Below the pieces are notes generated by a model. That model searched no databases and was not told the DNA's origin. It saw only the letters and a list, made by a program, of their open reading frames with translations. Shown here one piece after another: positions 1-40,684 of a stretch of DNA of 64,000 nt. A program made the position numbers and the translations under genes. This DNA is from Stegostoma tigrinum (taxonomy: Eukaryota). The stretch is from the NCBI RefSeq assembly GCF_030684315.1, contig NC_081399.1, positions 6,248,113 to 6,312,112 on the forward strand, written 5' to 3'. Position 1 is the first letter of the stretch; each line of letters starts with the position of its first letter.

Positions 1-1566
1 GGTGTCATTCGAGCAGAAAGAATGGTTCATCTGAATCTCAGTGCATAGAAGGATTAAATAAATGTACTAACACGGGATGTATTGGAATTGAAAGAGTTAT
101 TCTGTGTTTTGTGAGTGTGTTGTTTCCTGAGATTATAACAGTCATTCACTTTCCATCAAATATAGAATTGCTTGCTATTAAACTTTGATGGTGATATCCA
201 GTTTCAAGGCCACATCAGACTTCAGCATGACTCTAATGTCTCTTCTGGAGTGAATGAGTAAAAGATAACTGAGTTTTGGAATGAATTTGTTTCTTCACCT
301 GCCAGATCGTGAAGTCACCCAAATCTCAGCGGTGTAAATAGGAAATGTGCATTTGTGTGGATGTATTGAAGCGGACGTGAAACACTGAGAGTGGTGAGTA
401 AAGGATGTTGCTGTGAAGAGGAAGAAGGCGTTGTTTTCACTCTGGCTGCTGCACAGCCCTGGAGGCCAGCAGATGAAATATTGCTCGAGAGGGTTGATTC
501 CAAACAACAAGGAAAGAATCACACAGAGGACATCAGTGGATATAATGTTTGGTGAGACAGATCTGCGGGAGAGATGAGATGCTCTGGTATCCTGGATACA
601 GGACATGAATTATTTGGGAGATTGTAGAGTATCTGGGTGATTTGGAGACTTTGGGAATAATACAGGGGGTCTCCAGTGGAGATAGGCTTGAGTTTTTCAC
701 AACAATGAAATATTCCTTGGAGTGAACACAGGAAACTCATTTCAATAAGATAAGTGACGTTCCTCAGAGACACAGTTTTCCACTCATTTGAGAAGTGAAT
801 AACTAGTCGGGGTGGGGGCGGGAGTCAGGTGAGTTTTAAGAGTTCCACGTGGAAGAAGGTGGACTCTTCCATGTGATGAAAAAAAATGTATCGATTGTAT
901 CGAACTTTAAAGCACGGCTCTATGAGACAAAGGTTTGGAAGCGGATTTAAAAATGACATTAGAAAGTTGATCAGAGTAAGGATGTGAATGGAAACGATTC
1001 TCTAGTTACTAGACCAAGATCAAAAGGAGATGGAGATGACACAAGTCCTTGAAAACCATTGTGAAAATCTGTGACCGTCACTGAGTGGTTAAACTCGCCC
1101 ATTTCAGTAGAAAACTAATGGCTAACAACATAGCAGTGTGAGTAGATTTACAGTTAGACCACATGGGCGAAACAAGCTTTGAATCTGCCATTCAAACATG
1201 CCCATCAGAACCTCGTTTTGAAGAAAATGGATATTAAATATCAGAGAAACTCTTCTGAGTTTTGTGAGCAAGTCGTTTCCAAACATTTTAACAGTCAATT
1301 TCATTTCATTAAACCCAGCATTGCCTGTGAGAAATTCGCACACAAATATAATTTTCTCTTCTGGGGGATCTTTCAGACTCGTTCTGGAGTTATCGCTCCC
1401 TTTGCTGGAAAGGCTAAGGATAAGAGATTGAGGTTACTGGCTAAATTGTTCCCTGCGAGATAGTAAAGTCATCTGTCCTTTAACAGAATATGTGTCCTGA
1501 ACATCAATCGTCTAACCCCACCTGCTGGTGAGAAATGAATCCTGAACATCCCTGGTGTCGAATGCA

Positions 1567-2424: not shown

Positions 2425-4628
2425 GATCCTGTCATTTAACACTGGCTCCCTCTGTGAATGGATTATGGTCCAATGGCACCTGTGAAGGCAGTTTCTCTGC
2501 TCCATCTGATTAAATACACCACCTCCGGTTGCTATCTCATTCCCAACACCATTTGTTCTGAAACTTAAGCTCCACCTCACTCTGTTTCTTACTAATCTCT
2601 TTGGATTGATAGGGCAGTATTAATAGCTGGGCTCAAATTTCGAGAGGGATTCTTTAGCCTGGATAAACAAAGACGAATTATTAAGTTGGGTTGTCACTAA
2701 CAACATTCCAGACGTTGAAATAATGGAAGGTGAGTTGTTTGAAATGTTAACTGGATGAGAGAAGAGGATTTATACACTGAGATGCTTAGATCTGAAATGC
2801 ACTTTCTGAAAGTATGGTCTAAGAGGAATAAGAGCAAATTTCAAACAGATTTTGATAAATACATGAAAAGAGAAATGGCAAAAATGGGGTAGAGCACACA
2901 TGGGGAGAAAAGGATTGAATAATGTGACCTACTAAACCAGAGATTTATGGGAGAAACACTACTTCACAAGAGAGTGGTTACCACTTCTTTAATTCTTTCT
3001 TCAAATGTGGATGGCCTTGCAGATCTAACATTTATTTCGCATCCTGAAATGCCATTGTTTTCACTAAGTTGTGGGATGAGGGCATCGCCAGTTACACAGG
3101 ACTTATTGTCCATCTCTGATTGCCCAGCGTGCAGTTCAGGGGCAACTATATGGCTGTGAGTTTGGAGTCACATGGAGGCCAGACCAGGTAAGGACATTTG
3201 TGGGTCAGTGGGATTTTGCAAAAATTCTCAGTTGCTTAATGGTCATCAATAGACTGCTAATTCCACATTCCTTGGTATTGAATTCAAACTCCAACATTGC
3301 TCATGGCAGGATTGAACCCTTGTGACCAGGATATTCTGGGGAAAATCCAGCAATAATACCACCAGACCATCGCCTGCCTTTGTCCACGAGAAGGTCGTGG
3401 TGAGCCGTCTTCTTGAACTTTCATGATCTATTCTATCACTATTTTGTGGCTGTGATGGTTTGCTGGGTCGTTTTTGGAGGCCATTTGGGAGTCAGCATCA
3501 CTGTTATGGGTATGGAATTCACTTCAGACCTAGTCAGGAAAGTAGACCTCATTCTTCATCAGTGAAACAGAATCGTTAATAAGAAACTTCATCACGCATT
3601 CATGATCACAATGACTTGAACAAGCTGTGATTTTTTAAATGTCCAATTAGTTACCTGAAACAGATTTCAATGATACATTTTAAAAGACACTGTATACTGA
3701 CATGAGGAAGATAATATTGAGAGGACGTGTTTACCCTGTACGAGGAACTGTGTTGATCTCATCTAAGGAGCTGACATTGATAGGAACACCCTTATGAACC
3801 TGTTCTGTAATCGTGGTGGTTTTATGAAATATATAACATTATTGAGCCAAGGTTTTCTGTTGTTCCACGGCTTATTACACCAATACGTGACTGTGTGTTT
3901 CTTCAAATTACTTCACCGGGTGTGGACTAAGGAAACGATGCACTGTCAGAGAAAGAACAAAGAGGGAGCGCTATGGTGCTGTCTGACAGGTGATGTAGAA
4001 AGGAGTCTTCTCTCGAATAAATTATTCCATAGCTTGAGAGTTATGCCTGCACTTTTGCTTAAAGGTAAGATTGGACTCTACTGAGACGCATCCACGAATG
4101 CCACTGAATGGTTTACATGCTTAATTTAGTGGAAAATAAATGGTGAACAGCATTGCTGTGAGCGTAGATGTACGTATAGTCCATATCAAGGAATGACAGA
4201 TGAAGTTAGTTGTGAGTCTGCCAGTCAAAGATACTGAGCTGAACTTCAGTTTTTGGAAATATGATGTTAAATTCTGGAGAATGTCTTGTGAGTTTTGTGA
4301 GCAAGAGAATTCCAAACATTATAAAGATCGGCTTCACTTCATTAAACCCAGCATTGCCGTATAGATATTCGCAAATGAATACAGTTGGCTTTTTTTATGG
4401 ATTTTCAGATTCGTTCTCGAGCTATCACTCTCTGCTGACAAGAATGGGGATACGATAGTGAGGTTACTGACTAAATCTGATGGTGAAGTCATCTGTTTTG
4501 TCATAGAAAATGTGCCCTGACATCAATCATCTTTCCCCATCTGTTCCCCATTGGAAATGAGTCATGTGTCCATGGAATGGAATGCAAGTTTTTATTTGTA
4601 AGCGGGAAGACACTATCTCAAAACTATG

Positions 4629-6479: not shown

Positions 6480-7192
6480 CAGGGGTCCATTGCTTGGCTG
6501 GTGGCAAGAGGAGCTCTGCCAATGAGATCATTTACGCATGACTGGGATCTCTGCGCTTCTGCACGCTGCCCTCGACGTGGCTGTGGGGGGGACGAGACTG
6601 CCAATCACTTCCTTCTGGAGTGTACCTATGCGCAGGAGGTCTGGAGGAGAATGCGGCGGTTTGTTTCAAGGTTCGTCCCGAGCAGCTCCGTGATACAGGA
6701 CTGCGTGCTCTACGGTCTGTTTCACGGGACGCACACCGAGATCATCATCAACTGCGCCTGGAGGACCATCAATGAGGTGAAAGACGCTCTTGGGTCTGCC
6801 CGTAACTTGCTGGTCTTGCAGCTGAAAGAACTAACCCCGACCGAGTGTTGCAGACTGGCACAATCCAAGGTCCAGGACTACTTGCTGAGGGACGCGCTAA
6901 AGCTTGGGGCAGCCGCCGCCAAGGTGCGGTGGGGAAAGACCACCATATGAGACCCATTGGCCAGAGTGTAACAGGGGCCCTATTCGGTAAGTGGGCCCAG
7001 CTGGCGCCTTCCCCAACCTGTCAGGGGGCCAACGGGGACTGTGCGGAGAGACGACCGCCAGGTATTTTTCTTTTGTTTTGGCTTTATTCTGTTAGTTGGT
7101 GTACTTACCCCTAGGGTAACCAGGAGCAGCTAGCATGACCGGGTAGGTGTGTAAATATGTTTTTTTTTGTATATTCTTCGAATAAAGTGTAA
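6480..7192 (+). mobile_element. 3' end of an L1/Tx1-clade LINE
   Basis: ORF 6378-6950 contains the C-terminal zinc-knuckle CPRRGCGGDETANHFLLEC, followed by a T-rich 3' UTR and AATAAA at 7181. Confidence 0.75.
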
Positions 7193-7194
7193 TG

Positions 7195-7915
7195 TATAAC
7201 AGCCCTTCCTCCAGCAGAGACAAATAAAGCTTTTATTGTCAGTCTGGTTGCTCATTGTACCAGTACATTCGAGGGAACCTCGTAGGCTTCAGCGTGCATC
7301 AAAATGTAGCTGAACCTCCATTGTATCGACATGCTGGAAGAAGACTGCTCCACATAGGAGGCTAGAATTCCTGTCCAATGTAATGCGGAAAAGTTTCAAT
7401 TCTTTTGAAAATCACGCATTAGCATGTTGCATTTAAACAAAGGCTTTGCATTGGCACAGAGCAGCTGACAACCCAGAAATATATTTCAACCCATAAAAAG
7501 AAGCAAGATAATTTTATGTTAACACTCTTGCCAACCCTTTCCAGCAAAGCAACATTCTACAACAGCAATGTGGCAACTTTTCTTTTCAAAGGATTGTCTG
7601 AGGTTGAAATGTTCACGCAGGACCTGCTTAATTCTGAAGAGGGCACTGTTGTTATTGTCTCATGCGGAAGAGGGCATTTCTGCTTAACATGTTGTGTTTG
7701 CTATGAACTTTCTAAAAGTGCAGATCACCCTGAGTAATGATCCGTGAACTGTCTGACTTGATTTCCAGTTCCAGGATCTGGAGTGAGAGTCTTTCCTCTG
7801 ACTTTCTCAAACAGATGAGAGAGTGCCACTGAGTGCAGTACTGCTTATTTGTTGACTTTGCCTGATCTGGGGGCAGAGCAAATATCCAAATGAGAGAACA
7901 GATTTCATGTGGCAT
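7195..7915 (-). pseudogene. Truncated TCR V pseudogene V3 (leader 7867-7915, 5' half of V exon 7195-7370)
   Basis: Leader MPHEICSLIWIFALPP has its splice donor mutated to AT; the 3' half of V and the RSS are lost at the L1/Tx1 junction. Confidence 0.8.
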
Positions 7916-11780: not shown

Positions 11781-13884
11781 AGTTGGTGGTGAGGCACAGT
11801 CTGGAATCTACCTGCTCGAATTTGCTCCTACTTCATGTAAATGATGACTTGTCGGGCCTTTTCAGAGGGCACTTCAGAGTCAGTCTTCTTGCTGTGTGTC
11901 CAATGATAATGTACTGTATATATCAGGTCAGGATTGCAGTTGACCTTACTGAAGTGTGCGATGAACAAGCAACGTGTTTCTGAAGCAGAATGACAGTTTC
12001 ACCATGATGATCACAAGCTTTCAAATGGTATTTTTTAAAATGTAAAATATAAAATACATTACTTTGCATGAATATCACTGATACTGTTAAAAGGACACTA
12101 TACAGTGACATGAGGAAGACAAGATTGGAAAGGTGTGTTGAAACTGTATAAGTAATTGAGCTGATTCCGTTTAACCAGCTAACATTGACAGGAAGAACCT
12201 TATCGTCCTCTTCTGTTCTGTCGGATCCTGTGGTTTGGTGAAACATACAATAGTCTCAGTTCAAAGTCCACTCCTGTTCCATGCAGCGAGGCCTATGCCA
12301 CCAACAGGCAACTAAATGTTTCTCCAAATTAACTCACTGGGCATGGACTAAGAGGACAACACAATGGATGGGAAACAACTCAGATGGAGGGCTGAGCTGC
12401 CTGTCCCAAATGGCTTGGATGTTGTTACTGAGATCAGCACTCTCCCAAGTGAATAATCACAGAGCTTCAGACATGAGCTTGCCCTTTTCTTTCACTGTGC
12501 TACATGTTGAACCACCTTCATGGTTTCCATTGGGTGGCTTACTTGGCCATTTCAGAGTGGACTAAACATGCACAGCATTGTTGTGTTTCTGGTGTCAGTT
12601 ATGGGCAAGGCTGGAGTAAGATGGGGAAGTTAGGGTCTGAACTAGCCAGAGAGAGAGAGATGTTCACCTCAATCTCAGTGCGTATAAGTATGTAGTAAAT
12701 GCCTTAGCATGGTTGCATTGGAATTGAAGGAAGTTATTGTGAGTTTTGTGAGCGAGTGATTTCCCAATATTTTAGCAGACAATTACATTTCATCAAATCT
12801 AGCACTGTTTGCGTGCTATTAATATTTGATTGTGTTATCTGTTTCAGGGACCCATCATATTAGGCATGTTTTATCGGTCTCTCTAGTGGATAGAAGAGAG
12901 TCAGGAAAATATAACGAAGGCTTTTTGAATAAATATAGTTCTTTGCCTGACAGTAAGTGAAGTTACCTGAATCTCAGCGGCATAAATAAGAAGGAAAAGT
13001 GGGCTACCACGGATGTATGGAAGCAAAACTAAAATGGGAATCAGGAGATTTTGGTGAGTATAGGCGTTTGTCGTGAAGGGGGAGGGTGCGTGGCTTCCCG
13101 ATTGTTCTCGCTCTATCTTTTGCAGCGTACTCAAGACCAGTATTTTTTAAAAGTCGAGATGGTCGATTCCAAACAAAATGGAAAGAATCACAACCGCGGA
13201 GGCCGGTGGGGACCCAATGTGTTCAGACGGATCTGCAGGAAAGATGAAATGGCTGGTATCCTGGCTGCAAAATAAGAACTAGTTGGGATCCTGGAGTATT
13301 TCCAGTGTAATACAAGGGACCGTCGCTGGAGATAGGCTTGAGGTGCATTAAATATCGAAATTTTCCTTAGAGGGAACAGAGGGAATTAATTTCGCTGGGA
13401 TAATGGATGGTCATCAGAGATACAGATTTTTACTAACTTGAATAGCGGTTAACTGATGGCAAGGCCCTCGGAGTTTCAGGAGTTTTACAATGAAGAGGGT
13501 AGGAATGGTCCATGTGAACAACAATTTGCAATGCACTTCAAAGCTGGACTGTCTGAGAGAAAGATTTGTAAGCAGTTTTAATAATGACATTATAGATTTG
13601 ATTGAATAAATCTGTGAGGGGAACATTTCGCCAGTTCGTGGCTCGACAACAAAGGGGAAATAGTGATCGTAGAAAGACGCCTCATAAAGCACAGGTAGTG
13701 AAACGATGGCCTGATTTCCTTCTTTTGTCCTGACCATTCTCCGACATTTCACCTGGTCGCAGAAAATGTGGCCTGAGCATCAATGAGCCCCTGGCCCCAC
13801 CTGCTGGTGGTGAATGAGTCCCGAATGTCTCTGGAGTCGGATGCAGGTTTTTGGCGCTGAAAACACACTTTCTCAAACGCTGCG

Positions 13885-17318: not shown

Positions 17319-18780
17319 TTTGACTGTGTTTCTTCAAATTCATTCGCTGGGAGTGAACTGACAGAAAGAAGCACTGCCAGGGAAACCACGCAGAGGGCAC
17401 ACTTATCAGCCTGTAGTGCACTGGTTGTGAGTAGAAGCTGAAGGAGTATTCTATCAAGTAAACAGTCACATAACTTTACACTTGACCTTTCCCTTTTGTT
17501 CGCCACATTTGTTGAAATGCCTTCATGAATGACTGGCTTACGCGTCCCTTTTGGAGAGGATTGGTGTCACAAGTGGACGAGATCAAGGTAAGAAGTGTAA
17601 ATCTGGGTGTGAACCAGTAGAGAGAGATGTCACCAGAATCGTGCAGCTAGAAGCTTTTTACTTTGGTTGTGCCAGCAAGGGATGCATTGGAATTGAGAGA
17701 CATTAACGTGAGTTTTGTGAGTGAGTGATTTCCTAACATTTTAACAGTCGAAGATTTTTCATCAAGTATAGTATTCCTTGGCTACTATTACCCTTTGACT
17801 GTTTCAGGGTGCCATCAAAATTGTACATGGGTTATTAATCTCTCTACTGGAGAATGAGGAAAATATAATTAAGTTACAGCATGAATCTGTTTCTGCGCCT
17901 GCCAGATAGTGAAGTCACATGAGTCTGAGCAGAATAAATAAATAGAGAATGTGAATTCGTATGGATGCTTTGGAGCAGAATGAAATCTTTGAGAATTTAG
18001 TGAGCGAAGATGAGTGTGAAGGGGAGATAGGTTTTCTCGTCGCTGTTGTTCCATCTGTCGCAGTTTCCAGGACATCAGCAAGTACCAAATTGCTCGAGAG
18101 GATTGATTCCAAACGAAAAGAATCACAACAGAGGATGCCAATGGTGAGACAGACCTGCGGGAGAGACGAGATGCTCGGGCGTCCTGGGTGCAGAACATGC
18201 ATCACATGAGAGACTCTGGAGTGGCTGGATCATTTGCAGATTTCCAGAAAAATACAGGGGCCCTTCAGGGGAGATAGTATCGGCGTGATCAGAAGAATGA
18301 AATGTTTCCTCGGAGTGCACAGACGAAGCTCATTTCAGTGCGATAAGGAACGGTCATCAGCGACACAGATTTCCACAAATTTGCACAGTTATTAGCTAAT
18401 GGGGTGAGGAGGGACATGTGAGTTTCAGGAGGGAAGAGGATAGGAATGGTCCATGTGAACAAGTTGTAATGAACTTTAAAGTATGGCTGGCTGCGAATAG
18501 ATTTTGGAAGCCGGTTTACTAATGACAATGGAAAGGTGATTGAGTGAAAATATCAAGGGAAACAATTCCATAGTTCATAGATCAAGAACAAGGGGAGGGT
18601 ATCATCGCCACAAGAGTCCTTAAAAAGCCCTGGGAAAGGAAAGAAAGGCTAAATTGCATCTTCTGCTCTTCCCATCCTCTGATTTCAAACCTGGTCGCAG
18701 AAATTGCGCCCTGAACATCAGTCGTCTGTCCGCATCTGCTGGTGGAAAATGAGCCTTGGACGTGCTTGGAGATGGATGCA

Positions 18781-22216: not shown

Positions 22217-23032
22217 AATTAAATTGCCACATGGATTTTGTTCTTAGCCTGCCAGGCAATGAAGCTGTTTAGATCGCAGCAGTATAAATAAGAAGGGGAT
22301 GCGTACTGGCACAGAAGCATGGAAGCAGAGGTGGAATCATTGAGTTTGGTGAGTAAAGGAGATCTTCATAAAAGGAAGGAAGGCCTTTTTTTTAGCTGAT
22401 GTTGCCCTAGCTGTTGCAGCATCCAGCAGGCGGAAAATTCTTGGAGACAGCTCATTCCGCTCAAAGAAAGATTCAAATCAAAGAAGAACAGCAAATTCAT
22501 TGAGTTGTGATTCAGTTCTGCAGGGAGCATGGGATGTCCTCGAATCAGGGCAACAGAACATAATGTATATGGAGAGACTGGAGCATTTGCAGATTTTTCA
22601 TTATAATGCAGGGGATCATCGACGCACATGGGCTGGAGGTCCCCGAGTGTTGCCTTGGAATCTGATTGCCGTGGAATAAAGAATAACCGTTACGGACGCT
22701 GATTTTCTCGAATGATCACGTTGTGGGGGAGGCCCTGTGATTGGTGAAGAGATGTTCCATGTGAACAACAATTTATAATGTTCCTGAAAGCGCAGCTGTC
22801 TGAGAAGGTTGTGGATGCAGATTTATTACAGTCATTGGAAAGGTGATAGAGCAGATATACGAAGACAAACGACTCCCTCATTCGTGGGTTAAGAAAATGG
22901 GTAATTGACTGCAGAATTCACTCAAAGTGCTGGGCGTGCAAATGCGGGCTGAATTTCATCTTGTGTCCTCACTCTTCACTGATTGATTTTTAATCTGGTC
23001 ACCGAGAATCTGCCCTGACTCTCAATCCTCTG

Positions 23033-23046
23033 GCCTCACCTGCTGG
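23033..23046 (-). promoter_or_regulatory. CTCF-like/E-box motif 38 bp beyond the RSS nonamer
   Basis: CCAGCAGGTGAGGC; homologous copies at 1515-1528, 13794-13807, 18729-18742 and 32443-32456. Confidence 0.45.
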
Positions 23047-23084
23047 TGGGAGTGAGTCATGAACGTCCGTGGGTGTTGGATGCA

Positions 23085-23123
23085 GGTTTTTGTAGCTGCA
23101 AACACACGTTCTCTGGCACTGTG
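23085..23123 (-). other. Consensus RSS-23 of V6
   Basis: CACAGTG-CCAGAGAACGTGTGTTTGCAGCT (23 nt)-ACAAAAACC. Confidence 0.97.
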
Positions 23124-24003
23124 CGCTACTACACGCACAGAAATAGACACCGGTGTGGGAAACAGCGGCGCCTCTCAGTTCCAAACTAAACAGCTTCTCG
23201 CTGGACCTTTTGGCCTGAAAGGACTCGGATGTGTAATTCGTAAATGAGCCTTCACCAGCGGAGAAGAATAAAGCTTCCATTCCCCGGCCTGCTCGCTGTC
23301 TACACCAGTACATATTGCCAAAGCTAGTATCCTTCAGCGTGCACGTGAATGTAGCCGAATCTCTTTCTGCAATCGACACGATGGAAGGAGATTGCTCCAC
23401 ACAGGAGGCCAGAATTTCTGTTGAATGGAAAATATTCAAATTTATGGCAACAATTCAGTAGGACAAGGTCTGCATTGAAACTGTTAGCTTGCACTCATTT
23501 AGAAAGTACCGCCATCGAAAGCCGTATTTAACAGAGCTGCAATAATATTTACTTAATTAGCTCGTAACTGTTAAAATCCGTCCCCTCCGTTTTGAACAAA
23601 GCGTGATCCAAAAACAGAAATGTGGTAAAGGCCAGTACATACGCCCCTTGCAAAGAGTTGTTTCATGTTGAATTGTTGAAGTTGGATTTGCTTTTCTCTG
23701 AATGAGCCATTGCAACCATTGTCACTTTCTGAAGAGGACAGTTCTATTTATCGTTTTATGCTCATTGTGAACCTTGCAAAATTGCTGAGCATCTTCAGCA
23801 ATGATGCGTGGAATGTTAACCTTAATTTCTACCTCCAGGATCAGGAGTGAGAGTCGGGTCTATGACGTTCTCATCCAGATGGGAGAACGTGACTGAGTGA
23901 ACTATAAGTCATTTGGCAATGCACTGTTCCATTCACGCTGTGCCTTTGACTAACCTGAGGACATAGAAAATATCCAGATGAGAAAGTAGACTTCAGGCAG
24001 CAT
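23124..24003 (-). CDS. TRBV: Intact T-cell receptor beta-like variable gene segment V6 (leader exon 23955-24003, V exon 23124-23417)
   Basis: Spliced product MLPEVYFLIWIFSMSS-E-ILASCVEQSPSIVSIAERDSATFTCTLKDTSFGNMYWCRQRAGRGMEALFFSAGEGSFTNYTSESFQAKRSSEKLFSLELRGAAVSHTGVYFCACSS; phase-1 GT-AG intron; V-set Cys/Trp/Cys; perfect RSS. The beta-chain call rests on my recollection of TRBV30 sequence. Confidence 0.85.
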
Positions 24004-27156: not shown

Positions 27157-29505
27157 AAGAACATAAAACGTCGAACATAGAACAGTACAGTACAGTACAG
27201 GCCCTTCGGCCCACGATGTTCTGCCGAACTTTTACCCTAAACCTAAGGTCTATCTAACCTCCACCCCTACCTTATATTGCCATCCATATGCCTATCCAAT
27301 AGCCACTTAAATGCCCCTAATGAGGCCGACTCCACTACCGTCTCCTGTAATGCATTTCACGCCTCTCTGAGTAAAGACCTTACCTCGACGTCTCCCCTAT
27401 AATTGTCTCTACTCAATTTAAAACTGTGCCCCCTCGTAATAACTACCTCCACCCTCGAAAAATGTCTCTGGCTGTCCACTCTATCTATACATCTGATTAT
27501 TTAGTACTCCTCTATCAAGTCACCTCTCATCCTTCGTCTTTCTAAAGAGTAAAGCCCTAGCTCTCTCAACCTTTCTGCGTAAGACCTTCCCTCCATACCA
27601 GGCAACATCCTGGTAAATTTCCTCTGCACCTTTTCCAATTCTTCCACATCTTTCCTGCAATGAGGCGACCAGAACTAGAAACAATACTCCAGATGTGGCC
27701 GAACCAGGATTTGGTATAGGTGGAGCATAACTTCACGGCTCTTTAACTCAATCCCTCCATTAATGAAAGCTAACACACCATACGCCTTCTTAACAAGTCT
27801 AACTACCTGGGTGGCAGCTCTCAGGGAACTGTGAACATGAACCCCAAGATCCCACTGCTCCTCCACACGGCCAAGAATCTTTCCATTAACCTTGTATTCT
27901 GCTTTCATTTTGTTCTTCCAAAATGAATCACCTCACACTTTTCAGGGTTTAACTCCATCTGCCACTTCTCACCCCAGCTCTGCATCCTATCAATGTCCCT
28001 TTGTAACCGAGAACAGCCCTCTGCACTATCCACCACTCGAGCCACCTTCATATCACCTGCAAACTTGGTAATCCATCCTTCCACTCCTACTTCCAAATCA
28101 TTGACAAAAATCACAAATGGGAAGAGGACTCAGAACAGATTCTTGTGGTACACCACTCGGAACTGAGCGCCATGTTGAATATTTTCTGTCCACTACCACC
28201 CTTTGTCTTCTAAGGGTCAGCCAATTCTGAATACAATCTGCCTCATTTCCCCCTATTCCATGCCTCCTTACTTCCTGCATGAGCCTACTATGGGAAAATT
28301 TATCAAATGCCTCACTTAAATCCACGAATACCATATCCAATGTTCTACCTTCATCCACGTGTTTGGTCACATCTACAAAGAATTCAATAAGTTTCGTGAG
28401 GCATGATCTACCCCTCGCAAATCGATGCTGACTATCCCGAATCAAACTGTGCCTATACAAGTGACCATAAATCCTATCTCTCGGAGCCCTTTCCTATAAT
28501 TTTCCCACTGCTGACACAAGACTAACTGGCCTGTAGTTCTGGGTTTATCCCTATTCTCTTTTTTGAACAAGGGCATGATGTTCACCTCTTTCCAATTTTC
28601 TGGCACTATACCCATGGGCAATGAGGACGAAAAGATCATCGCAAAAGCCCCTGAAATCTCTTCCCTCAATTTCCACAGAATCCTTGGATAAATCCCATCA
28701 GGCCCAGAGGACTTATCTGTCTTCAACTTCCTCAAAATTCCGAGTGCATCTTCCTTACTAACATCCACCTTCCCTAGCCTACCAGCCTGTTTCACAATGT
28801 CATCCCCCACAGCTAGGTTCCTCCCAGTTGTGAATACCGAAGAAAAGTATTCATTAAGGACCTCTCCTATTTCTTTAGTCTCCGTGCACAAATTCCCTTT
28901 ACAATCCTTGATGGGCCCTACCCTTTCTCTGGTCATCCTCTTCTTCCTCACATACGCATAAAAAGTCTTGGAGTTTTCCTTAATCCTATCTGCCAGGGTT
29001 TTCTCATGACCCATTACAGCTCTGCTAAGCCCTTTGTTCAGCTCCTTCCTAGCTAACTTGTAACCATCTAGAGCGTTTTCTGATCCTTGTTTCCTTAACC
29101 TTATATAAGCATACTTCTTCCTCTTAACCAGTCGTTCGACCTCTCTTGAGAACCAAGGCTCCATCACTCAACCACATCTTCCCTGCCTGCTAGGGACAAA
29201 CATTTTGAGCATGCACAGTATGCATTCCTTAAACAATCTCCACATTTCTATAGTGCTCTTCCCTGACCGCATCTGTTACCATTTTGTGTTACCCAGTTCT
29301 TTCCAACAGAATTATAATTACTCTTCCCCCAATTATAAACCTTACCCTGCTGTATGTACTTATCCTTTTCCATGAATATTGTAAAAGCACCAGAGGTATG
29401 ACTGCTACCACCAAAATGCTCTCCTACCAACAGGTCTAACACTTGATCTGGTTCATTGCCAAGCACCAATTCGAAAGTGGCCTTTCCTCGTGTTGGTCTA
29501 TCTAC
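27157..29505 (-). mobile_element. CR1 LINE, 5'-truncated and frameshifted
   Basis: ORF fragments 29248-29469, 28442-29167, 28098-28460, 27905-28114 and 27675-27908 carry CR1 RT motifs (KSSGPDGIYPRIL, SCLTKLIEFF, LVRPHLEYC). Confidence 0.92.
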
Positions 29506-29770
29506 ATGTAAGACGGAATGGCAACTCTCAGTTCAAAACTAAGCAGCAATTCATTGTGTCTTTTGGCCTGATAACACTTGGATATGTACTTTAGAACTGC
29601 TCCTGATACACCAGAGTGGAATAAAGCTTATATTGCCCCGTCTGGTTGCTGTCTGTGTCAGTACATGGAGCTGCAATCTGTATTATTCAGCGTGCATCTG
29701 AGTGTAGCCGAATATCTTCCTGCATTCGACATGATAGAAGGAGACCTCGCCAGGTAGGAGGCCAGAATTC
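29506..29770 (-). pseudogene. TCR V fragment V7
   Basis: RCTLNNTDCSSMY*HRQQP; the 3' end and RSS are missing at the CR1 junction, and no leader is found upstream. Confidence 0.8.
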
Positions 29771-29967
29771 CTGTCCAACATAGAATGGAATCGAATCAAA
29801 CTTCTGAAAAAAAAATCGTTAGAAGAGCTGTATTTAAATAAAGTGTTTGCATTGCAACCGAATGTGTCATACGGCAAAGCAACATCTATAACCACATTTT
29901 TTGAAAATATCTAGACATTGTTAAATTTATATGTGTTTATTGAGATGCTTGGATCTGGAATGTAATT

Positions 29968-30290: not shown

Positions 30291-32532
30291 CTTTCGAACC
30301 AAATTTGGATCAATGTACGAAAGGGGGCAGAGCAGGTGGGGAAAGTAGAATAAATGCCATTAAAAGACTATTAGCTGATAAATCCAAACGATTGGTAAAC
30401 CCAAGATTTCAGGGAGAGGCAAAAAAGATGGAATTCAGAAGACAATGGGACTACTTGTTTAATTTCATCCTGGATGTGGACGTACTATTTATCCTCACCT
30501 TTGTTGTCCATCCGGAATTGTCCTTATGAAGATGTTGATGAGACACTTCTTGAATTATTGTGCTTTATTCCGTCACTGCTTTGTACAAATGGCTTGCTGA
30601 GCCATTTAAGAGGAAATTCAGAGCCAACCAATTTCTGTGGGTCTGCAGTTACATGTACTCCAGACCAGATCAACATGGCACATTCTGTCCCCGAAGGACA
30701 TCAAAGAACAAGATGCGTGTTTGTAATTCGTAATGACAGTTTTGTGACCACGATGGCTAAATCAAGTTTGGAAGTTTTTTTTAATGTTATATTGACATAT
30801 ATGTCAATTGCACTTTTAAAAATGCGTTACATACTGACATGAAGAAGATATGACTGGGAGGGTCTATCGACAGGATGAAACGGATTATGCTGATCCCATC
30901 TAAACAGTTGACATTGAAAACAAAACAGCCTCATGGCTCTGTTCTGTTCTGTAGGATTTTGTGGTTTAGTGAAATATGCAACAGTCTTGGGTGAAAATTG
31001 CTCCCCAGTTCCATGCAGCGAGGCCCTATTCCAACCAAGTGTGACTGTATGTTTCTTCGAGGTTATTCACTGGGCATGGACAGAGAGAATGATGCACTGC
31101 CAGAGAAGCCAAGACAAAGAAGCGCTGCTTTGCTGTTTGGCAGGTGATGTTGAAAGCAATATTCTCTCAAACAGCGATTACATAGCTTGAGGTTTGCACC
31201 TGAAAGTTTGCTTATTTGTGGAATTGGACTGCGATGAGGCAAATTCATGAAGGTTACTGCGGGGGTTACTAACCCATTTCAATGATGAATCCTTCTGAAT
31301 AGCATTATAGAGTTTCTGAGCCTATATATGGACCAGATCGTGAAATGTAGGGCGGAATTAGCTGTGAACCTGCCAAAGATGTCATCTGAACTTCAGTGTG
31401 CGATGGATTACTAAATCCAGGATCGTGGAGTCCATTTGAATAGAAAGAAATTCTGGTGAATTTCGTCAGCTAGTGACTTCCAAGCACTTCCACGGTCAGT
31501 CTCTTTTCCTTCAACACTTCTTTACTTGCAGGAAATTCTCACATGAATCTATTTTGCTGTTTGTGGGATCTTTCTGACTTGGGCTGAAATGGTCAATCAC
31601 TGTGCTGGAAAGATTGAGAATAGGACAGTGAAGTTACAGACAAAATCTCATTCGTTAGCTGCCAGTAACTGAAGTTATCTGCAGGCCATTACAGTAAATA
31701 GGAAGTGAAGCTGCACCGGAACAAAAGCATTGGAGCAGAGTGAAATCCTCGGAAATTCGTTGAGTAAAGGAGTTCCGTGTGAAGGAAGGGCAGGGAGCCA
31801 CTGTTTACTTGCTGTTGTTGTGCCATTTTTTGTAGCATCCAGAAAATTTCTGCGGAAGAGGTTCAATAGTCTGGCATGAGTTGTTGGGGTGGTGGGGTGG
31901 AGGGCGCAAAGATGAATGATGCGCAGAATCGGAAGGATTTGCAGATGTTCACTGCAATTCGGGGGCCTTCAGGAGAGATAAACTTGAGTGCTCAGAGTAT
32001 TGAAAGTTACCTTTTTTGATAAAAGGGAATCTGCTTTCAGTGGGATTAGGCATCACCATCAGAAACAGGAAATTCCACTATTGGAAAAATGATCACCCTG
32101 CTGGGGGTCAGGTGGGTGTTTGGGGTTTGGGGGAGTTCCAGTGAGTGGAGGTTGGCTATGTTCCCAGTGACGAAGAATTTAAGATGATTTTGAATGCGAT
32201 ACTGCTTGACAGAATGTTCTGGAGATGGGTTTATTAATCATGTTAGAATGGGATTAAGTAAATAAGTCAACGGTAACAATTCAGCAGTTTATTAGAGAAG
32301 CGCAAGGTGAGATTGTAATCGACAGGAGCGTTATCTCAAAGCCATGAGAGGGATAAACTTGACTGAATTCCAGACTATATCCTCTTAATTACCTTATTCA
32401 TAATCTGGTCACGGAAAATGTACCCTAAACATTAATCGTGTGTCCCCACCTACTGATGGAACATGAGTCCTTAATGCCCCGGAGTTGGATGTGGGTTTTG
32501 GTTAATGCAAAGACGCTTTCTCAACCGCTGTT

Positions 32533-35111: not shown

Positions 35112-36214
35112 ATCTCTTTCTAGATATTAATCAATTAATGACGTGTTGCAAGTTCTGTGGAAGAACGCCAGTCTGCAGCAAATACGTGAGAGTCCAGAGA
35201 TCTAGTGCAGTTTCATAAACGAGTGACTTCAGAATTCATGGAAGAGACACGTATTTCCGTTTGCTTCTGATAAATCCCATCGTCAAAGAATTTCATGAAA
35301 GAGTGGCATGTACTGTTGAAATGGGTGTCCAGTTGGCAACTTATGATTCTTTTATATGCAGTTTTCATTTATCTCTTAATTATGTCCGTCTTTCGGTGTG
35401 GCAGTGGTGTTTTATATTGAAAAAGATTGGGCTTAGACAGCCTTGTTTTTATTTTCTATGTTCTACTAAGGGTACATTGCTAATAATGATTTGCTCTTTA
35501 CAATTTAAGTCATAGACTTTATATCCAACATAAAGCCTAGATACAAGCAATTAAACAGTTTTGAGAGTTGAAATTCTGAATATTTTAAATTCTCTGTGTT
35601 GCAAATTCAGTTAAAACGAGACTGGAATGGTTTAACTTGTTCTCCCTGTGCCGCAAAATTCGATAATGCAGAAATGTTTAAGGAGATACAGCTTTGAGAT
35701 GTTGAAATTGCAGAAGTGAAACATTTGAGCGGAATGTCCTGACAGTGCGATGAAGGATGAACATCAGAGACATTGATTTCCACTCAACGGAAAAAGGATC
35801 GGCCTGATTAGGGAGTCCCAGTGAGTGGGAGAGATTAGATGTTCCATTTGAGCAACAATTCATAGTTCCCCTGAAACCAAGGCTGCTTTTAAAAAATCTG
35901 GAATCTGAATTTAAAATGACTTTTACAAAAAAAATGCTTCTGTAAACATATGAAAGGAAAAGTTTCCCGAGTTTATGGGCCAAGAAGTGGCGGAGATTGT
36001 GATTTACAGAAGAGCTCTCTCAAAGCGCTGACAATGGAAAGATGACCTGAGTTCTATTTGCTCTCTGCCCCATTCTCCGATTCTTCATCTTTTCGTGGAA
36101 AATTTGTTCCAAACATCTATAGTCTGACACCTCCTGCTGTTAGGAATTAAGCCCTGGGGTTGGATGCGTATTTTTTTTTCTCTGTAGCTTGCAAAGAATT
36201 TCTCAAACCTTGTT

Positions 36215-40123: not shown

Positions 40124-40684
40124 GGTTTAACTTTCTATCAACCTGTTCTAACATTCTGTAATGCAGGAGCGATTAAGGGGAGATCAATTTGCACAGCTCA
40201 AAATACTGAAATGACTCTTTTCGGGAAACAGGGAAGTGTGTTTCCAGTTGGTTAAAGGACGGTCAGCAGAGCTACTGATTTCCACTAAATGTGAATAGGA
40301 TCAGCTTGCGGGAGGAGGCCCTGAAAATGGGGGAGAAGAGATTTTCCATGTGAGGAACAATTAGTTGTTGGATACAAGATTCTAGAAACAGATTTAATAA
40401 TGTCATTAAAAGATATTTGAGTAAATAAGTGAATGGAAATGATTCTGTAGTTTATGGTTCAAGATCAAAGAGAGATTGTGTTTGACAAGAGGCTTTTCAC
40501 AGACCACTGAAAATGAAGGGATGAGCTGAATTCCACGTTCTGTCCTCCATATTCTCTGAATCTTAACTTCGTCACAGAAAATGTGCCCTGAACATCAATC
40601 ATCTGATGGTGGACAATAAGACCTGAATATCCCTGGGGTCAGAGACAGGTCTTTGTAGCTGAAAAACCACTTTCACAAAAGTAG

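What the first reader, a model, noticed from the sequence alone, without database searches (positions are those of the whole stretch)
23033..23093. CTCF-like motif at a fixed 38 bp beyond the RSS nonamer
Seen: minus-strand CCAGCAGGTGGGGC (V4), CCAGCAGGTGGGGT (V1), CCAGCAGGTGAGGC (V6) and CCAGCAGATGCGGA (V5) each lie 38 bp past the nonamer, and TCAGTAGGTGGGGA (V8) lies 37 bp past it, all in the same orientation. Known: the CTCF core is CCASYAGRKGGCRS, and RSS-adjacent CTCF sites at mouse proximal VH genes promote capture during RAG/cohesin scanning. Inference: sharks may use the same V-accessibility logic, which would date it to the base of jawed vertebrates. Caveats: the motif also contains an E2A-type E-box (CAGGTG/CAGATG), and its conservation may simply reflect duplication.
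Basis: partly seen in the sequence, partly recalled or inferred. Interest (0 to 1): 0.7.

Follow-up and report, generated by a model that had tools for sequence, protein, structure and literature searches.

The report
CTCF-like site behind shark TCR-beta Vs
One duplicated family of shark T-cell-receptor beta V gene pieces carries an imperfect match to the binding motif of the DNA-looping protein CTCF about 38 bases behind its cutting signal, which likely helps these far-away pieces reach their joining partners, but it is one inherited copy multiplied by duplication, most other shark V pieces sampled lack it, and binding is untested.

Summary
In detail: all five motifs lie where stated (38, 38, 38, 38, 37 bp), pointing toward D-J-C. 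The window is the D-distal end of a TCR-beta locus, not IgH. The five Vs belong to one family of 14 copies. Twelve keep the motif block, inherited once with its flanks, so the fixed spacing reflects duplication. For CTCF: 8 of 12 copies score at least 8 bits (recalled PWM); a site as good as the majority motif would lie behind a V by chance 0.2-0.3% of the time; substitutions are PWM-tolerant (p 0.02); a relative keeps CTCF-compatible motifs in 3 of 3 copies seen, losing the E-box in one. Against: 10 of 11 copies have G where the core wants C (0 of 43 mouse RSS sites do); excess conservation is marginal (p 0.05-0.2); 0 of 6 D-proximal TRBVs and 1 of 57 other Vs sampled carry a site; no binding data. 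Verdict: probable weak CTCF site (about 0.5), analogous rather than homologous to mouse VH sites; dating it to the base of jawed vertebrates is unsupported. This scan noted similar 21-26 bp sites on other sharks' TCR Vs before.

The parts
23124..23420 (-). V6: intact TCR-beta V exon (V-set, both cysteines, open frame)
   Evidence: family identity from paralogs V5 and V1
23085..23123 (-). V6 23-RSS, consensus heptamer and nonamer
23047..23084 (-). 38-bp linker, homologous in all 12 copies that keep the block
23033..23046 (-). V6 CTCF-like motif, 12.7 bits, p 1e-5, mismatches at core positions 11 and 12; contains an E-box
22995..23032 (-). Conserved block 3' of the motif; homology shared by the whole family ends about 25-45 bp after the motif
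13794..13807 (-). V4 motif, 16.8 bits (best copy), 38 bp behind a dead RSS of a frameshifted V
1515..1528 (-). V1 motif, 12.9 bits, 38 bp; V frame open but first conserved cysteine lost
18729..18742 (-). V5 motif, 6.3 bits, 38 bp; V frameshifted
32443..32456 (-). V8 motif, 8.2 bits, 37 bp, E-box absent; V frameshifted, heptamer dead
36127..36140 (-).
4534..4547 (-). V3 decayed motif, -5 bits, E-box kept; pseudogene
40596..40609 (-). V10 motif remnant, 3' half deleted; pseudogene
29505..29774 (-). Truncated family member without RSS or motif block
7156..7380 (-). Family fragment without RSS or motif block

Best explanation
The motif is an imperfect CTCF-type sequence that sits 38 bp behind the recombination signal of one D-distal shark TCR-beta V family, was inherited once and spread by duplication, and likely binds CTCF weakly so that cohesin loops would pause or anchor next to the signal and help these distant Vs meet the D-J region. 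Shown: position, orientation toward D-J-C, single origin, locus layout (family 59-116 kb from D, motif-free Vs 10-44 kb from D), predicted sites of opposite orientation 3' of C. Inferred: CTCF occupancy, loop anchoring, any effect on V usage. By analogy with mouse Tcrb the benefit could come from loop-assisted diffusion rather than strict RAG scanning. In the eight broken copies the motif is likely decaying with the rest of the unit.
For: PWM (JASPAR MA0139.1 counts recalled from memory): 8 of 12 copies reach 8 bits or more, the threshold used for skate ATAC peaks in PMC10115646; all 4 intact Vs score 8.4-12.7. Chance of a 13.9-bit site behind a V 0.2-0.3%. Orientation matches mammalian V-region sites (PMC6746451, PMC10772921, PMC5859386). 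Given their number, the observed substitutions cost less PWM score than random ones (summed 99.8 versus 61.6 +/- 18.6, p 0.02 for 11 copies; p 0.047 for the 4 intact). In intact Vs the 19-bp motif differs from the majority at 10 of 76 sites against 63 of 262 in flanks (p 0.027), in pseudogenes 22 of 133 against 83 of 451 (p 0.36). A related species keeps sites of 13.2, 14.3 and 15.3 bits in 3 of 3 copies that could be read, and its V6 ortholog lost the E-box. All 5 sites of 11 bits or more from -240 to -66 kb point back toward the Vs, the nearest (16.8 bits) about 33 kb beyond C (two of the five are duplicates).
Against: G at core position 12 in 10 of 11 copies here and 3 of 3 in the relative; the recalled matrix has G there in under 1% of sites, and in mouse Table S1 of PMC6746451 0 of 43 RSS-associated and 2 of 142 listed sites end in G. 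No upstream TGC module at -17 to -15 (read against PMC10287918). Motif not significantly more conserved than its flanks overall (permutation p 0.20 for 12 copies, 0.048 only after dropping the three worst; a window 14-34 bp downstream is as conserved; Fisher p 0.057-0.18), unlike mouse, where the site is far more conserved than the spacer. Best score is in a pseudogene; intact versus broken scores p 0.11. The relative's V6 ortholog has 3 substitutions and an insertion in or beside the 14 bp against about 8% overall. No site of 11 bits or more between the last V and C. The intact-only tests are post hoc and the copies are not independent. No binding data.
Confidence: 0.5

Rival explanations
1. 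Neutral passenger: a chance CTCF look-alike in the ancestral V flank was copied with the gene and has no function; the fixed distance is only shared descent.
For: Linker (0.67), downstream 40 bp (0.68), intron end (0.69) and exon (0.69) are about as conserved as the motif (0.71). One origin only. Strongly disfavoured base at position 12. Spacing changed to 59 bp in an intact V. Motif region of the V6 ortholog changed more than average. Absent from 56 of 57 other Vs and 6 of 6 proximal TRBVs.
Against: A single site this good is a 0.2-0.3% event per V family, a few percent even over the dozen or so families sampled; PWM-tolerant substitutions (p 0.02); better retention in intact copies (p 0.027); orientation as in mammals.
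Confidence: 0.3
2. The functional element is the E-box (E2A/HEB type) or a composite element bound by another factor that opens chromatin at the RSS; the CTCF likeness is incidental.
For: The six E-box bases are the best conserved part of the motif (pairwise identity 0.81-0.86, like the nonamer at 0.81-0.84). 9 of 12 copies hold a CANNTG in or overlapping the motif, including V3 and V10, which lost the CTCF match, and the intact V at -2.8 kb, which lost the usual E-box but has one 3 bp upstream. E2A promotes mouse Tcrb accessibility (PMC9134016). The relative's ortholog of the V at -13.8 kb holds two inverted E-boxes in a palindrome.
Against: The E-box is gone in an intact V here (-13.8 kb) and in the relative's V6 ortholog, both of which keep 12-14 bit CTCF scores. 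The E-box bases are also the high-information CTCF positions, so their conservation does not separate the two. The review places E2A at V-beta promoters and enhancer, not behind the RSS. A 6-mer occurs often by chance.
Confidence: 0.2

Closest known systems
RSS-associated CTCF sites of mouse Igh proximal VH families (7183, Q52, S107 and others) and human IGHV (PMC6746451)
   Same: CTCF-type motif within 100 bp 3' of a V 23-RSS nonamer, one orientation toward D-J, presence follows V family descent
   Different: TCR-beta not IgH; D-distal not D-proximal; 38 bp versus 17-19 bp (one mouse site at 34; human 19 or 48); core position 12 is G (0 of 43 mouse RSS sites); spacer is as conserved as the motif here, whereas in mouse the motif is much more conserved; mouse sites are shown to bind by EMSA and ChIP
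Mouse Tcrb V-region CTCF elements, including the Trbv1 element (PMC10772921, PMC5859386)
   Same: Same locus type; V-region sites all point toward D-J-C and converge on sites flanking it; the most distal V depends on its site for contacts and recombination
   Different: Mouse has 18 bound sites, only 2 near an RSS and several at promoters, not one per V at a fixed distance; mouse has convergent sites between V and D (5'PC, CBE1), for which no 11-bit equivalent was found here; no sequence homology tested
E2A/HEB E-boxes of mouse Tcrb (PMC9134016)
   Same: CANNTG embedded in the motif in 9 of 12 copies
   Different: Described at promoters and enhancer; the E-box is lost in intact copies that keep the CTCF match

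Membership tests
RSS-associated CTCF-binding element (Igh type) | Motif match above background | tested here: met
   8 of 12 copies at 8 bits or more, 5 at p about 1e-5 or better, recalled PWM; local chance 0.2-0.3%
RSS-associated CTCF-binding element (Igh type) | Canonical core including C (or tolerated T/A) at position 12 | tested here: not met
   G in 10 of 11 copies; 0 of 43 mouse RSS sites have G, 35 C, 6 T, 2 A (counted)
RSS-associated CTCF-binding element (Igh type) | Within 100 bp 3' of the nonamer at a fixed distance | tested here: met
   37-39 bp in 10 of 12 copies, but explained by shared descent
RSS-associated CTCF-binding element (Igh type) | Uniform orientation toward D-J-C | tested here: met
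   All copies on the minus strand, D-J-C at lower coordinates
RSS-associated CTCF-binding element (Igh type) | Motif much more conserved than the RSS-to-motif spacer | tested here: inconclusive
   p 0.20 (12 copies), 0.048 (9 copies), 0.027 (4 intact, post hoc), 0.36 (pseudogenes)
RSS-associated CTCF-binding element (Igh type) | Present at functional members, typically absent at dead ones | tested here: inconclusive
   4 of 4 intact at 8 bits or more, 4 of 8 broken; Mann-Whitney p 0.11
RSS-associated CTCF-binding element (Igh type) | Located at D-proximal Vs | tested here: not met
   0 of 6 D-proximal Vs have a forward site above 4.2 bits; the family is D-distal
RSS-associated CTCF-binding element (Igh type) | Convergent partner sites near the recombination centre | tested here: inconclusive
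   5 of 5 sites of 11 bits or more 3' of C are convergent, nearest about 33 kb from C; none between last V and C; at 8 bits 14 versus 10
RSS-associated CTCF-binding element (Igh type) | CTCF binds in vitro and in lymphocytes; loss lowers V usage | not testable with these tools
   No ChIP, ATAC or RNA holder was listed for this stretch
E2A/HEB E-box element | CANNTG kept in all functional copies | tested here: not met
   3 of 4 intact Vs here hold one; lost in the relative's V6 ortholog
TCR-beta locus | V(23-RSS) - D(12/23) - J(12) - single C1 in translocon order; V most like TRBV | tested here: met
   C exon matches IgH constant domains first and TCR-beta next, so C alone is not decisive; TRA/D and TRG-like Vs lie on other contigs

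The most novel reading that the evidence does not exclude
Sharks independently wired a CTCF loop-anchor behind the recombination signal of their most distant TCR-beta V family, using a deliberately weak G12 core, to offset distance from the D-J centre; with the TCR sites at 21-26 bp noted in other sharks by this scan, RSS-adjacent CTCF would be a solution that jawed vertebrates reached repeatedly at different antigen receptor loci.
Probability: 0.2. Interest if true: 0.7.

Novelty: new member of a known kind. Interest (0 to 1): 0.4.

Why it matters
How distant V segments get a fair share of recombination is understood almost only in mouse. A bound site here would show that cartilaginous fish use CTCF-tuned looping at a translocon TCR locus, and the locus offers a built-in contrast: four intact distal Vs with the site against proximal Vs without it. 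It would show convergence, not inheritance from a shared Igh-type ancestor. If CTCF does not bind, it is a caution that fixed spacing among paralogs is not evidence of function.

Tried and rejected
Genome-wide word counts to ask whether the G12 variant is used in this shark: canonical 461 versus reversed control 13, G variant 490 versus 38; inconclusive, because the commonest G word lies in a LINE-like repeat in 4 of 6 places checked and Markov expectations (335-405 and 462-658) overshoot the controls three- to fourfold or more. Strict nonamer-plus-motif patterns: 15 hits, 2 at a V, both in this family; 37 hits for the full C12 core, none on the contigs holding the TCR loci at those loci, judged by position and not fetched. 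Origin from a repeat: a DNA search with exon plus flank gave 13 hits, all in this locus (very common words are skipped). My leader-exon regex found only one leader, so 'intact' rests on V frame, cysteines and RSS; V6's leader was read by eye. In one search the V9 motif was taken 3 bp off register; the values for V9 come. Twelve of 60 loci (mostly light-chain-like clusters) gave no RSS-bearing V and are not in the 57. Look-ups of earlier notes by sequence, by relatives and by TCR-beta words gave nothing. Whole genomes of other elasmobranchs were not available.

Full report
Setting. The window is G000:C59:6248113-6312112 of a 3.2-Gb genome. I read 120 kb on one side and 80 kb on the other, later 120 kb more on the D-J-C side. 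On the minus strand the order is V segments with 23-RSS, a D with 12- and 23-RSS at about window -75.6 kb, five J motifs at -76 to -84 kb and one C1-set exon near -93.4 kb. A window V matches TCR-beta chains best in the PDB; the C exon matches IgH constant domains first and TCR-beta next. TRA/D-like and TRG-like Vs lie on other contigs, with IgH-like clusters beside TRA/D as described for elasmobranchs (PMC12227049, passages). So this is a TCR-beta locus of a shark-like fish; that the D core is the conserved TRBD type is recalled.

Observation. All five motifs are present at 38, 38, 38, 38 and 37 bp from the nonamer. They belong to one V family of 14 copies from -16.3 to +41 kb, 59-116 kb from D. 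Twelve copies keep the 3' block; spacing is 38 in 8, 37-39 in 10, 59 in one and about 32 in one. Six Vs of other families lie 10-44 kb from D.

Motif quality. With the JASPAR MA0139.1 counts recalled from memory (column sums 908-913, not checked against a database), scores are V4 16.8, V1 12.9, V6 12.7, -13.8 kb 12.3, -16.3 kb 12.2, V9 9.0, -2.8 kb 8.4 (9.6 in a shifted register), V8 8.2, V5 6.3, -4.4 kb 5.9, V3 -5.0, V10 half deleted. The skate genome paper used the same matrix at threshold 8 and reports a CTCF orientation code in a cartilaginous fish (PMC10115646, passages). The majority motif scores 13.9; with the family's sites masked, such a site falls in a 120-bp window with probability 0.0017, or 0.0034 in either orientation. 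All copies point toward D-J-C. The flaw is core position 12 of the consensus CCASYAGRKGGCRS printed in PMC6746451: G in 10 of 11 copies. In that paper's mouse table (supplement file 2, part 1 of 3, 142 of 144 sites seen, predicted sites) 0 of 43 RSS-associated sites and 2 of 142 overall end in G. Weak cores can fall to non-specific binding (PMC10287918, passages), but only 36% of core SNPs changed occupancy in a human pedigree (PMC3310774, passages), so the G does not decide the matter.

Conservation. The block from exon to about 35 bp past the motif is homologous in all 12 copies. Pairwise identities: intron end 0.69, exon 0.69, nonamer 0.81, linker 0.67, motif 0.71, E-box part 0.81, next 40 bp 0.68. 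Permutation p for the motif is 0.20 with 12 copies and 0.048 after dropping V3, V9 and V10; a window 14-34 bp downstream is as conserved. This differs from mouse, where the site is far more conserved than the spacer. Two weaker signals favour selection: the substitutions cost less PWM score than random ones (p 0.02 for 11 copies, 0.047 intact, 0.09 broken), and the 19-bp motif is better kept than flanks in intact copies (10 of 76 versus 63 of 262, p 0.027) but not in pseudogenes (22 of 133 versus 83 of 451, p 0.36). Both are post hoc, on non-independent copies, and on a motif noticed because it matches. Scores of intact and broken copies do not differ significantly (p 0.11).

A relative. Contigs of a second organism from three studies cover V6 at about 92% identity. 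Its motif has three substitutions and a G insertion that turn the 3' half into a G run: E-box lost, score about 14.3, linker one base longer. Sixty-two difference rows were not shown, so the 5' half is not confirmed. On the V at -13.8 kb, loose ends give the ortholog's motif (13.2 bits, no poly-C insertion, up to two unlisted differences possible) and that of a multi-copy paralog (15.3 bits), both with E-box. So 3 of 3 readable copies stay CTCF-compatible and all keep G12; but the V6 motif changed more than its flanks.

How general. The six D-proximal TRBVs have no forward site above 4.2 bits within 200 bp; one has a reverse 10.2-bit site. Of 57 distinct RSS-bearing Vs from 60 fetched loci (TRA/D-like, IgH-like, TRG-like, one TRB-like; a sample guided by the 150 scored of 986 V-set candidates), 1 has a forward site (8.2 bits at 37 bp) and 1 a reverse site, about the 0.8 expected by chance. 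Both Vs called in a second TRB-like locus on C51 (one already among the 57) lack it; a third shows none by eye. Earlier notes of this scan report CTCF motifs 21-26 bp behind some shark TCR Vs in other genomes; my sample in this genome did not meet such a family, and the sample is incomplete.

Locus context. From -240 to -66 kb, 5 of 5 sites of 11 bits or more point back toward the Vs, the nearest 16.8 bits at -126.2 kb; two are duplicates, none lies between the last V and C, and at 8 bits the split 3' of C is 14 to 10. In mouse Tcrb 18 bound V-region sites share one orientation and converge on three sites flanking D-J; only 2 are near an RSS; the distal Trbv1 needs its site, and recombines partly by diffusion rather than scanning (PMC10772921 and PMC5859386, passages).

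Mechanism. Most likely (0.5) a weak CTCF site gained once in the ancestor of this family, which would slow or anchor cohesin just inside the interval to be deleted and raise contact between distal Vs and D-J. Position, orientation and descent are shown; binding and effect are inferred. Rivals: neutral passenger (0.3) and an E-box or composite element (0.2; E2A acts at mouse V-beta promoters and enhancer, PMC9134016, passages).

Novelty. RSS-adjacent CTCF sites are known in mammalian IgH. Searches combining CTCF with shark, TCR, RSS, teleost or cartilaginous terms (listings only) showed no paper describing them at shark V genes; the library lacks most subscription papers, and file 1 of the PMC6746451 supplements could not be searched. 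It works like an Igh RSS-CBE at best; it fails two membership features (core position 12, proximal location) and gives no evidence of common ancestry with the mouse sites.

Noticed in passing
G000:C51:540001-780000 (L129-L148): A second TCR-beta-like locus on another contig: Vs ending in CAWS, two D-J-C clusters, one of them inverted (D near 686127 and 757061; C exons at 671918 minus and 767301 plus). This shark appears to have TRB loci on two contigs.
   Followed up: partly
window about 22995 and equivalent places in the paralogs: Family-wide homology stops 25-45 bp after the motif; beyond it the 12 copies fall into three unrelated flank groups (28-42% identity between, 53-72% within), although introns stay homologous across groups. 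Two breakpoints lie just past the block.
   Followed up: partly
L015:6010-6040 (window about -13.9 kb): A poly-C insertion moves the motif of an intact V to 59 bp and removes its E-box; the related organism lacks the insertion and has a 16-bp palindrome with two inverted E-boxes there.
   Followed up: partly
window 23051-23057 and 4560 region, minus strand: An AP-1-type heptamer (motif recalled) lies in the linker of V6 and V3; other copies differ by one or two bases.
   Followed up: no
L121, L123, L125, L126: A LINE-like repeat carries a near-consensus CTCF word with G at position 12 and accounts for many genome-wide matches (4 of 6 checked).
   Followed up: partly
L079:803: One TRA/D-like V has an 8.2-bit forward CTCF-like site 37 bp behind its nonamer, with C at position 12; single case, at chance frequency.
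   Followed up: no
L109-L120 (window -128 to -232 kb): Several single-exon GPCR-like open frames and a duplicated segment flank the locus 3' of C; no inverted V was found there by tblastn.
   Followed up: no
window -16.3 kb to 41 kb: Only 4 of 14 members of the distal V family look intact, and none of the nine other members inside the window does; the exon tree is star-like, suggesting one burst of duplication followed by decay.
   Followed up: partly
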